Positions 43,430-43,606 of a stretch of 64,000 nucleotides of DNA are shown piece after piece; the first letter of the stretch is position 1; each line of letters starts with the position of its first letter. The translations under genes were made by a program, and so were the position numbers. The notes under the pieces were generated by a model, which worked only from the letters and a program-made list of their open reading frames with translations, was not told the origin of the DNA and made no database searches. The stretch spans positions 1 to 64,000 of the IMG/VR virus record IMGVR_UViG_3300032324_000938, one strand, 5' to 3'. This DNA comes from a virus (taxonomy: Duplodnaviria; Caudoviricetes).

Positions 43430-43606
43430 TGATCGTTGGTGTATAGAATTATAGCACTCTGCCATTAGGAGGTAGATGAGACTGAAGTTGACGAGATAGA
43501 CATTCGATTTAAGTTTATGGTTTCTGTGCGCACAGTGCCGTTGGACTTGACCGAAATATGGAACGCTTAGTGAAATCCTCGTATATTCGCAAGTCACGGT
43601 CATCCA
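43430..43606 (+). ncRNA. 177-nt expanded tRNA-like RNA with UAG anticodon arm
   Basis: Acceptor TGATCGT/ACGGTCA-T-CCA, D-arm and anticodon arm at canonical spacing, enlarged variable and T arms. Confidence 0.65.

What the first reader, a model, noticed from the sequence alone, without database searches (positions are those of the whole stretch)
43430..43606. 177-nt expanded tRNA: canonical 5' half, giant variable and T arms
Seen: 7-bp acceptor + U73 + CCA, D-stem GTGT/GCAC, anticodon stem CTGCC/GGTAG with loop AT-TAG-GA at canonical spacing. After this come ~70 nt of extra variable region and a T-stem GACTTG/CAAGTC enclosing a ~40-nt hairpin (CGAAATAT/ATATTCG). Inference: a tRNA-derived ncRNA that may be aminoacylated or act as a ribosome/synthetase/nuclease decoy.
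Basis: partly seen in the sequence, partly recalled or inferred. Interest (0 to 1): 0.72.

Follow-up and report, generated by a model that had tools for sequence, protein, structure and literature searches.

The report
tRNA-shaped phage RNA, rebuilt T arm
Among the tRNA genes of a large uncultivated phage lies a conserved gene for a tRNA-shaped RNA that cannot read codons, because a long, almost invariant folded arm sits where the T loop should be; it adds a new architecture to the old, unsolved class of extra small RNAs in phage tRNA clusters.

Summary
The feature is real. Window 43430-43606 (+) belongs to a conserved RNA family: 51 distinct sequences in about 100 viral and metagenome contigs. 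A covariance model built from short relatives scores it 103 bits (E 4e-24). Compensatory changes support the 7-bp acceptor stem, the 'anticodon' stem and a 4-bp T stem. 97% of pair cells are standard pairs, against 25-51% when partners are slid.

The variable loop is 4 nt. The T stem is GACU/AGUC (43480-83/43592-95). The 'GACTTG' strand lies in a clade-specific 58-nt hairpin that shorter members (122-148 nt) lack.

The RNA is not a decoding tRNA: the 'anticodon' loop is 4-8 nt and unconserved. The gene sits like a tRNA gene, sometimes 3-4 nt from its neighbours, always with U at -1 and usually with an encoded CCA.

The invariant part is the T-arm extension. It ends in a junction with strands NNAGA, GAAC and G-UGAAAUC, the last resembling this phage group's G55-type T loops. 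That junction recurs twice more in the window.

Function is untested. I read it as an RNase P-processed tRNA-framed RNA presenting an elbow-like knob. Closest known are T4 rnaC/rnaD and T5 RNA1/RNA2. An earlier scan note (e1-6002370) describes what looks like this kind of RNA in another genome.

The parts
43430..43436 (+). Acceptor stem, 5' strand (UGAUCGU); pairs with 43596-43602
   Evidence: 7 bp, 100% of cells paired in 28 sequences, 2 pairs with compensatory changes. U at -1 in 55 of 55 distinct contexts.
43437..43457 (+). U8, G9 and the D hairpin (GUG-UAUA-GAAU-UAUA-G-CAC). It is a closed hairpin without G18 G19.
   Evidence: Nearly invariant sequence. RNAalifold and model R1 pair GU/AC and UAUA/UAUA. 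No covariation, so the pairing is inferred.
43459..43475 (+). 'Anticodon' hairpin: CUGCC / AUUAGGA / GGUAG
   Evidence: The stem has 4 covarying pairs. Across the family the loop is 4-8 nt and unconserved.
43476..43479 (+). 4-nt variable loop (AUGA)
   Evidence: Always 4 nt and always ending in A.
43480..43495 (+). 5' strand of the extended T arm: GACU (T stem), GAA, GUUG (internal loop), ACGAG
   Evidence: GACU/AGUC covaries with GGGU/ACCC and GGCU/GGCC. GAA/UUC and ACGAG/CUCGU are invariant or show G-U changes only.
43496..43500 (+). Junction strand J1 (AUAGA; family consensus NNAGA)
   Evidence: AGA is invariant in all F1 variants and in paralogues F2 and F3.
43501..43560 (+). Clade-specific expansion hairpin, closed by CAU/AUG.
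   Evidence: Absent in the 122-130-nt members, replaced by a 25-nt hairpin in the 147-148-nt members, and by an unrelated hairpin in the 171-174-nt clade. Family-constrained fold. The closing triplets covary in paralogue F2: CAU/AUG, CAU/GUG, CGC/GCG.
43561..43570 (+). Invariant GAAC, then a variable loop (GCUUA) and G
   Evidence: GAAC is invariant in F1, F2 and F3. The loop is 3-9 nt and free in sequence.
43571..43577 (+). UGAAAUC, a T-loop-like heptamer directly 5' of the 5-nt strand CUCGU
   Evidence: Invariant in the 48 of 51 F1 sequences that a script parsed, in the other 3 by eye, and in F2 and F3. It resembles the G55-type T loops of these phages' own tRNAs, such as UGAAAAU and UGCGAUU.
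43578..43595 (+). 3' strand of the extended T arm: CUCGU, AUA, UUC, GCA (bulge), AGUC
   Evidence: This includes most of the 21-mer that recovered the family.
43596..43606 (+). Acceptor 3' strand (ACGGUCA), discriminator U73, encoded CCA
   Evidence: CCA is encoded in 82 of 94 instances.

Best explanation
Window 43430-43606 is the gene of a small, non-decoding, tRNA-framed RNA of a large uncultivated phage.

Shown: it belongs to a conserved family with a covarying 7-bp acceptor stem, a D hairpin, a short 'anticodon' hairpin with a free loop, a 4-nt variable loop and a 4-bp T stem. In place of the T loop it has a long arm: GAA/UUC, then ACGAG/CUCGU, then a junction. The junction strands NNAGA, GAAC and G-UGAAAUC are invariant, and two sites in it accept hairpins of any size. 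The gene lies on the tRNA strand inside tRNA arrays at tRNA-gene spacing.

Inferred, step 1: it is co-transcribed with the phage tRNAs and cut out by the tRNA machinery, with RNase P cutting between U-1 and U+1 and 3' trimming to the CCA. The tRNA frame then serves as a processing and stability scaffold.

Inferred, step 2: the working part is the arm tip. UGAAAUC followed by a 5-nt stem strand looks like a T loop of the G55 type used by this phage's own tRNAs. The strands inserted before it would supply the partner that a D loop normally gives. The tip would then be a self-contained, elbow-like knob held about 8-9 base-pair layers further from the CCA end than a tRNA elbow.

Inferred, step 3: the RNA engages a factor that reads tRNA ends and elbows (a processing enzyme, modification enzyme, nuclease or other tRNA binder) as a mimic or competitor, while being unusable by the ribosome. 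Steps 1-3 are untested.
For: Family and structure:
- The exact 21-mer occurs in 43 IMG/VR contigs, 54 metagenome contigs and 2 MAG contigs.
- There are 50 distinct full-length sequences plus L136.
- Model R1 scores the window copy 103 bits, E 4e-24.
- 97.3% of cells are paired, 8 pairs carry compensatory changes, and 0 of 500 shuffles reach the covariation score.

Not decoding: the loop is 4-8 nt and unconserved; ARAGORN and Rfam tRNA are silent.

tRNA-like gene behaviour:
- It starts 3-4 nt after the CCA of tRNA-Gln in 9 contexts and 19 nt after tRNA-Pro in 4.
- tRNA-Ala starts 4-9 nt after its end in 4 contexts.
- U is at -1 in 55 of 55 contexts.
- CCA is encoded in 82 of 94 instances.

Not coding: no frame is open in 13 of 50 variants, and length steps of +23, +50 and +53 nt break frames.

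Arm tip as the business end:
- It is invariant while the tRNA-type stems covary.
- The same junction recurs at window 34769-34849 and 37018-37131 with different closing helices: ACGAG/CUCGU, ACUG/CAGU and GAAG/CUUC.
- UGAAAUC resembles the T loops UGAAAAU, UGCGAUU and UGCAAGU, a class found in about 19 of 235 distinct tRNAs of these phages.
Against: - No expression or end-mapping data exist.
- Single-sequence folds are not more stable than shuffles.
- The invariant arm shows no covariation, so GAA/UUC, ACGAG/CUCGU and the tip fold rest on conservation and energy models only.
- The family was recovered with exact words, so its diversity is narrow, and many 'independent' sequences are close relatives.
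- CCA is lost (TTA, ACA or CCG) in 12 of 94 instances, although neighbouring tRNAs keep it in 23 of 29 cases.
- Two related 131-134-kb phage records with the syntenic array lack the element in the DNA held, so it is dispensable or replaceable.
- No partner protein was identified. Ro60 is absent from the window's own record and from four large element-bearing records, and no CCA-adding enzyme is in the own record; all these records are incomplete.
Confidence: 0.6

Rival explanations
1. It is chargeable but non-decoding. A synthetase aminoacylates the acceptor end, and the RNA donates the amino acid outside the ribosome or titrates a synthetase.
For: U1-A72, G2-C71, A3-U70, U73 and usually CCA are invariant, while pairs 4-7 covary. 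This is what sequence-specific reading of the acceptor end would give. U73 alone can confer cysteine identity on minihelices, and bacterial Cys identity includes U73 and G2-C71 (PMC9976931).
Against: No bacterial identity set is met. Cys needs C3-G70 and GCA. Gly needs G1-C72 and C2-G71. Gln needs G73 and G3-C70. Ala needs G3.U70. His needs G-1. CCA is replaced in 12 of 94 instances. Synthetases that read the anticodon cannot use a free loop.
Confidence: 0.1
2. It is a decoy or sponge for a host anti-phage nuclease or toxin that attacks tRNA acceptor ends or T arms.
For: It is a tRNA frame that cannot be used in translation. It is an accessory gene with presence/absence among close relatives. 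It is carried by phages that invest heavily in tRNAs and tmRNA.
Against: The anticodon loop, the usual target of tRNA nucleases, is unconserved. No defence or counter-defence gene is linked to it. The same junction module also occurs outside any acceptor frame.
Confidence: 0.12
3. [quoted passage not shown] The RNA would dock on the elbows of other tRNAs or pre-tRNAs.
For: The published signature is AGNNA...UGNNA (PMC3664808). AGAYA occurs in 48 of 51 variants, and UGAAA occurs in all variants and in F2 and F3. The Rfam RNase P consensus reads ACAGAAA...[P12 hairpin]...GGUGAAA, with a variable hairpin between the two, as here. The predicted platform is A:A (R:R), as in RNase P and the L1 stalk.
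Against: In members with the expansion hairpin, positions 4-5 of AGACA are Watson-Crick paired (CAU/AUG, covarying in F2). That is incompatible with a T loop. AGACG occurs in 3 variants. By my rough estimate the bare pattern is expected by chance in about 1 in 10 such A-rich loops. The RNase P and T-box models give no match.
Confidence: 0.1
4. The conserved junction is a small self-cleaving ribozyme or another cis-acting processing signal of the tRNA operon.
For: It is a three-way junction with invariant strands and free peripheral helices, which is the usual look of small ribozymes. All three copies lie 15-80 nt upstream of a tRNA 5' end. HDV-like theta ribozymes are known next to phage tRNAs (PMC10879173).
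Against: No Rfam ribozyme family matches at E up to 10. The hammerhead core order does not fit; that check was done by eye. Cleavage inside the T arm would destroy the tRNA frame that selection keeps.
Confidence: 0.06
5. It is a working but expanded tRNA-Leu(UAG), or else a decaying tRNA pseudogene or DNA-level signal (promoter, homing site).
For: In this clade it has a 7-nt loop with U33, UAG and R37. A weak promoter-like match, TTTAGA-16-TAGAAT, overlaps the 5' end. GIY-YIG endonuclease genes lie in and near the tRNA array, and 5' remnants occur in L010.
Against: Loop length and sequence are free in the family. A canonical tRNA-Leu(UAG) already exists at 42305. There is no elbow. Compensatory changes and an invariant 55-nt arm show selection on an RNA. 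The promoter-like site is absent where the element abuts a tRNA.
Confidence: 0.03

Closest known systems
Phage T4 stable RNAs species 1 and 2 (rnaC 139 nt, rnaD 119 nt)
   Same: They are extra small RNAs encoded on the tRNA strand inside the phage tRNA cluster, a few nt from tRNA genes, and rnaC has tRNA-like parts. Their roles remain unknown (PMC3014915).
   Different: There is no sequence or model similarity: R1 finds nothing at rnaC or rnaD in the T4 region, only weak scattered and tRNA-gene matches with E above 0.2. rnaC keeps a canonical T arm (GGTTCGAATCC), whereas here the T loop is the part replaced.
Phage T5 RNA1 (144 nt) and RNA2 (125 nt), annotated 'tRNA-like stable RNA with unknown functions'
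   Same: They have the same genomic setting and the same idea of a tRNA frame carrying a foreign domain.
   Different: Both keep a canonical T arm and carry their extra domain on the anticodon side. R1 matches only ordinary T5 tRNAs, at 14 bits or less.
YrlA / bacterial Y RNA (Rfam RF02553)
   Same: It is a non-decoding RNA with a tRNA-like module, also found in phages. This comparison rests on my own knowledge and on earlier scan notes.
   Different: In YrlA the 5' and 3' ends form the Ro-binding stem and the tRNA-like part keeps its T arm. Here the ends form an acceptor stem with CCA and the T loop is gone. There is no Rfam match and no Ro60 gene in 5 records.
tmRNA (RF00023)
   Same: It is a tRNA-like acceptor end carrying a large inserted domain, and a true tmRNA lies 1 kb downstream (44676-45058).
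   Different: tmRNA keeps the T arm and replaces the anticodon side; it has a tag reading frame, pseudoknots and a G3.U70 pair. None of these is present here.
[quoted passage not shown]
   Same: AGNNA and UGNNA pentamers flank a variable hairpin, and GUGAAA is as in the RNase P consensus.
   Different: Part of the AGNNA candidate is paired in long members. No model match and no structural test exist.

Membership tests
Canonical decoding tRNA (RF00005) | 7-bp acceptor stem, discriminator base, CCA end | tested here: met
   CCA is encoded in 82 of 94 instances.
Canonical decoding tRNA (RF00005) | 7-nt anticodon loop with a conserved anticodon | tested here: not met
   The window has a 7-nt loop, but across the family it is 4-8 nt with unrelated sequence; UAG in the window versus UGG in the near-identical L012.
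Canonical decoding tRNA (RF00005) | 5-bp T stem with a 7-nt T loop next to the acceptor stem, and a D loop with G18 G19 (the elbow) | tested here: not met
   The T stem is 4 bp and is followed by a 58-108-nt arm. The D arm is a closed hairpin with a GAAU loop.
Canonical decoding tRNA (RF00005) | Recognised by tRNA models | tested here: not met
   ARAGORN is silent. RF00005 gives no match at E up to 10.
Phage tRNA-cluster stable RNAs (T4 rnaC/rnaD, T5 RNA1/RNA2) | Encoded within the phage tRNA cluster on the tRNA strand, with tRNA-like ends | tested here: met
Phage tRNA-cluster stable RNAs (T4 rnaC/rnaD, T5 RNA1/RNA2) | Accumulates as a discrete stable RNA in infected cells | not testable with these tools
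   No transcript data are available.
Phage tRNA-cluster stable RNAs (T4 rnaC/rnaD, T5 RNA1/RNA2) | Homology in sequence or structure to the T4 or T5 RNAs | tested here: not met
   R1 with filters off finds only ordinary tRNAs at 14 bits or less. The T4 and T5 RNAs keep canonical T arms.
YrlA / Y RNA | Ro-binding stem formed by the termini, linkage to rsr (TROVE domain), RF02553 match | tested here: not met
   The termini form an acceptor stem. PF05731 is absent from the window's own record and from 4 large records, all incomplete. There is no Rfam match.
tmRNA | Canonical T arm, tag reading frame, pseudoknots, RF00023 match | tested here: not met
   RF00023 matches only 44676-45058.
[quoted passage not shown] | Invariant AGNNA ... 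UGNNA pair with an R:R platform | tested here: inconclusive
   The pattern is present: AGAYA in 48 of 51 variants and UGAAA in all. However, C-A of AGACA pairs with U-G in the expansion-hairpin stem, and the pattern alone is weak.
[quoted passage not shown] | Interdigitated three-dimensional fold that stacks on the tRNA G19:C56 face | not testable with these tools
   This needs probing, a solved structure or a binding assay.
Known self-cleaving ribozymes (hammerhead, HDV/theta, hairpin, twister, pistol, hatchet) | Match to the family model or core | tested here: not met
   No such family appears at E up to 10 in the window copy or a short member, nor at E up to 1 around the paralogues.

The most novel reading that the evidence does not exclude
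The invariant junction (NNAGA / GAAC / G-UGAAAUC) is a portable 'elbow' module built around a G55-type T loop. These phages graft it onto different tRNA-derived frames: inside the T arm here, after a decayed tRNA at 34769-34849, and around a tRNA body at 37018-37131. The grafted RNAs would engage, in trans or in cis, the machinery that measures tRNAs by their elbow. The RNase P S-domain is the first candidate. The result would be a phage-encoded RNA regulator or helper of tRNA processing, which would also give a first testable function for the 50-year-old class of unexplained phage tRNA-cluster RNAs.
Probability: 0.15. Interest if true: 0.85.

Novelty: new variant of a known kind. Interest (0 to 1): 0.6.

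Why it matters
Phage tRNA clusters have long been known to encode extra stable RNAs that nobody has explained (T4 RNA C and D, PMC3014915; T5 RNA1 and RNA2, GenBank annotation). This family adds an architecture not seen in those: the anticodon side is kept as a bland hairpin, and the T loop is replaced by an invariant folded arm. That arm is the part of a tRNA read by RNase P, the ribosome's L1 stalk, T-boxes, EF-Tu and several modification enzymes.

The family now has a covariance model, 51 sequence variants and three natural size classes that mark the dispensable sites. It also has two paralogous copies of its core in other frames. Together these define a small set of nucleotides to mutate and a short list of binding partners to test. 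Neither Rfam nor ARAGORN detects it, so such genes are currently invisible in phage annotation.

Tried and rejected
1. Protein-coding on the minus strand (ORF 43331-43603, 90 aa). It has no Pfam match, the frame is not conserved, and length steps are not multiples of 3.
2. A tRNA with an intron. About 100 nt is too short for a group I intron, no Rfam intron matches, and removing the arm does not leave a canonical T arm.
3. Origin from one tRNA of the window. No tRNA aligns with the 5' half above noise. Only a 10-nt identity with the neighbouring tRNA-Ala D-arm region was seen.
4. An internal promoter. The TTTAGA-16-TAGAAT match is lost where the element abuts a tRNA.
5. Antisense targets. No complementarity of 11 nt or more to the invariant strands exists in the window. 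That scan instead revealed the two paralogous copies.
6. More distant members. Two further pattern scans of IMG/VR added only three near variants: L063 and L065 and L136. The other new stretches were chance matches in coding DNA. The L123 genome hit is also a chance match.
7. Cultured relatives. No similarity to the element was found in 50,697 phage records; the 1.3-kb query gave only short tRNA-length matches. A helicase protein query found nothing.
8. RNase P RNA in the window. There is no CR-I-like motif above chance and no RF00010 match in 4 element-bearing records.
9. Resemblances recalled from memory (hairpin-ribozyme loop B with GUAUAUU, the sarcin-ricin loop with ACGAGA, hammerhead with CUGANGA...GAAA). 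Order or pairing does not fit, and no model match was found.

Full report
SETTING. The window is the first 64 kb of a 75-kb IMG/VR virus record estimated to be 24% complete, so the phage genome is on the order of 300 kb. Window GC is 33%. It carries two tRNA arrays (33.1-38.4 kb and 42.1-44.4 kb) and a tmRNA at 44676-45058. The finding lies in the second array on the tRNA strand, between tRNA-Gln (43025-43098) and tRNA-Ala (43660-43734).

THE OBSERVATION. The minimum-energy fold of the 177 nt reproduces them. That fold is no better than shuffled sequence (z = -0.49), ARAGORN does not call the region, and Rfam finds nothing at E up to 10. The single sequence therefore decides nothing.

RELATIVES.
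- Loci recovered through flanking proteins showed the element in some related contigs: L006 at 92% identity and L007 at 73%. It was absent from others at the same site.
- An exact 21-mer from its 3' part occurs in 43 IMG/VR contigs, 54 metagenome contigs and two contigs binned into MAGs. A third genome hit is a chance match in coding DNA.
- I extracted 50 distinct full-length sequences from 94 instances. One more, L136, came from a different seed.
- They fall into three size classes: 122-130 nt (20 variants), 147-148 nt (5) and 171-177 nt (25).
- Two further pattern scans added almost nothing. The family is therefore narrow and confined to one group of uncultivated phages, and no cultured phage shows similarity to the element.

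STRUCTURE.
- RNAalifold on the 11 short forms gives a cloverleaf-like fold.
- A covariance model built from those short forms (R1) finds the window copy at 103 bits, E 4e-24, with one copy per locus.
- On the 28-sequence model alignment, 97.3% of pair cells are standard pairs, against 25-51% when partners are slid by 1-3 columns. Eight pairs carry compensatory changes, and no shuffle of 500 reaches the covariation score.
- The supported helices are the acceptor stem (7 bp, 2 covarying pairs), the 'anticodon' stem (5-6 bp, 4 covarying pairs) and a 4-bp T stem GACU/AGUC (2 covarying pairs: GGGU/ACCC and GGCU/GGCC).
- The D arm is a nearly invariant closed hairpin (GU..UAUA-GAAU-UAUA..AC).
- Beyond the T stem, GAA/UUC and ACGAG/CUCGU are invariant or change only to G-U, so they rest on conservation and energy alone.

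The variable loop is 4 nt (43476-79). The partner of AGUC (43592-95) is GACU at 43480-83. That hairpin is absent from the short class. The medium class has a 25-nt hairpin there, and the 171-174-nt clade has an unrelated hairpin. The supposed partner strands CAAGTC and ATATTCG are unchanged in all classes.

With the family helices enforced, the window RNA folds at -42.9 kcal/mol, against -45.3 unconstrained.

NOT A DECODING tRNA. The 'anticodon' loop is 4-8 nt across the family, with sequences such as AUUAGGA, AUUGGGA, AAGACA, CGCAA and GGUUUGU. A near-identical 177-nt variant (L012) changes the 'anticodon' from UAG to UGG. There is no G18 G19 and no T loop next to the acceptor stem. A normal tRNA-Leu(UAG) lies at 42305.

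A GENE THAT BEHAVES LIKE A tRNA GENE.
- In 70 distinct contexts it always lies on the tRNA strand.
- It starts 3-4 nt after the CCA of tRNA-Gln in nine contexts and 19 nt after tRNA-Pro in four.
- tRNA-Ala starts 4-9 nt after its end in four contexts.
- The base before its first nucleotide is U in 55 of 55 distinct contexts.
- CCA is encoded in 82 of 94 instances. It is TTA, ACA or CCG in 12, although neighbouring tRNAs there mostly keep CCA.
- No reading frame is conserved, and the 90-aa minus-strand ORF has no family match.

From established knowledge of bacterial tRNA maturation, I infer co-transcription with the tRNAs, RNase P cleavage at U-1/U+1, and 3' trimming. None of this is shown.

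THE INVARIANT ARM. The tRNA-type stems drift by compensatory change, but the arm between the two T-stem strands is almost frozen. It reads GAA-GUUG-ACGAG-AUAGA-[site 1]-GAAC-[site 2]-G-UGAAAUC-CUCGU-AUA-UUC-GCA. Site 1 takes nothing, or hairpins of 25 or 58 nt. Site 2 is a 3-9-nt loop.

A scan for antisense targets found none. It did reveal the same junction twice more in this window:
- F2 at 34769-34849 lies after a decayed tRNA (Rfam 28.8 bits). It is conserved in L015, L098, L072 and L097/L107.
- F3 at 37018-37131 is conserved in L041/L098. Its site 1 holds a tRNA body (Rfam tRNA positions 8-63, 25.4 bits).

The closing helix differs between the three copies (ACGAG/CUCGU, ACUG/CAGU, GAAG/CUUC), while NNAGA, GAAC and GUGAAAUC stay. 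In F2 the triplets that close site 1 covary: CAU/AUG, CAU/GUG and CGC/GCG. The junction is therefore a portable module.

WHAT THE MODULE MIGHT BE. UGAAAUC followed directly by a 5-nt stem strand has the layout of a T loop plus T stem. Its sequence is close to the G55-type T loops that these phages use in about 19 of 235 distinct tRNAs (UGAAAAU, UGCGAUU, UGCAAGU). I therefore read the tip as a T arm with extra strands inserted between its 5' stem strand and its loop. Those strands may give the T loop the partner that a D loop normally provides. This is inference.

[quoted passage not shown] Its published signature is AGNNA...UGNNA (PMC3664808). The Rfam RNase P consensus reads ACAGAAA-[P12]-GGUGAAA. 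Here AGAYA occurs in 48 of 51 variants and UGAAA in all. Against this reading, C-A of AGACA is paired in the site-1 stem, three variants have AGACG, and by my rough estimate the bare pattern is expected by chance about one time in ten.

CHARGING. U1-A72, G2-C71, A3-U70 and U73 are invariant, but they fit no bacterial identity set. The nearest is cysteine (U73 and G2-C71, but it needs C3-G70 and GCA) (PMC9976931).

COMPARISON WITH KNOWN RNAs.
- T4 rnaC and rnaD, and T5 RNA1 and RNA2, share the setting, and their functions are unknown. However, rnaC, RNA1 and RNA2 keep canonical T arms, and none of them matches R1.
- YrlA, tmRNA and the known ribozymes fail their defining features.

I file the finding as a new variant of the known kind 'phage tRNA-cluster tRNA-like RNA'. 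Many notes describe other tRNA-framed phage RNAs in which the anticodon side is replaced.

LIMITS.
- There are no expression data.
- The family was seeded by exact words.
- The invariant arm gives no covariation.
- All phage records are fragments, so absences of the element, Ro60 and a CCA-adding enzyme are weak evidence.

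Noticed in passing
window 34655-34850: This is a second composite RNA (F2). A stem AAUACAUUA/UAAUGUAUU encloses a decayed tRNA (34677-34750, Rfam tRNA 28.8 bits, just under the cut-off). The same junction module follows at 34769-34849. Its site-1 hairpin has a covarying stem and an invariant loop CUGACGAG. It is conserved in L015:1529-1729 (90%), L098, L072 and L097/L107, and ends 15 nt before tRNA-Asn.
   Followed up: partly
window 37018-37131: This is a third copy of the junction (F3), closed by GAAG/CUUC. Its expansion site holds a tRNA body (37037-37094, Rfam tRNA positions 8-63, 25.4 bits) with a G55-type T arm. It is conserved in L041/L098 and ends 17 nt before tRNA-Asp.
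   Followed up: partly
window 43218-43291: This is a non-canonical tRNA-Pro(UGG) missed by ARAGORN and below the Rfam cut-off (27.9 bits). It has C33 and a T loop UGCAAGU. The L004 copy scores 47.5 bits and has U33.
   Followed up: partly
window 43295-43420: This is a conserved non-coding block directly after that tRNA-Pro. It is 90% identical in L003/L004, where it is followed by a different element. It is therefore independent of the finding. A helix that another first-reader note draws between 43309-18 and 43457-66 cannot be conserved. No Rfam match.
   Followed up: partly
L004:9095-9190 (also directly upstream of the element in L006, L014, L015 and L047): This is another conserved, GC-richer module of about 100 nt, with no Rfam match. 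In two 131-134-kb relatives it occupies the slot that the finding occupies in the window.
   Followed up: partly
L010:334-372 and L010:1290-1320: These are two remnants of the element's first 30-39 nt. One is fused to a fragment of the gene homologous to window 40887-41789. This is a sign of recombination in the array.
   Followed up: no
window 33902-34651 and 28072-28929: These are GIY-YIG (Seg-like) endonuclease ORFs, the first inside the tRNA array, as segB is in T4. They may explain the mosaic presence and absence of array modules.
   Followed up: no
window 43623-43651: This is a promoter-like site, TTGACT-17-TAAGAT, before tRNA-Ala. It is conserved in many relatives after a U-rich stretch, so in this clade the element may end a transcription unit.
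   Followed up: no
window 33344-33419: ARAGORN calls a tRNA with a 4-base anticodon (ctct). Its T loop UGAAAAU is the closest tRNA match to the module's UGAAAUC.
   Followed up: no
window 35295-35556: This is another tRNA-framed RNA, reported by a separate follow-up. Its 5' end (UCUCAAU-UG-GUGUAUAUA) resembles the finding's 5' end (UGAUCGU-UG-GUGUAUAGA), so the two may be paralogues.
   Followed up: no
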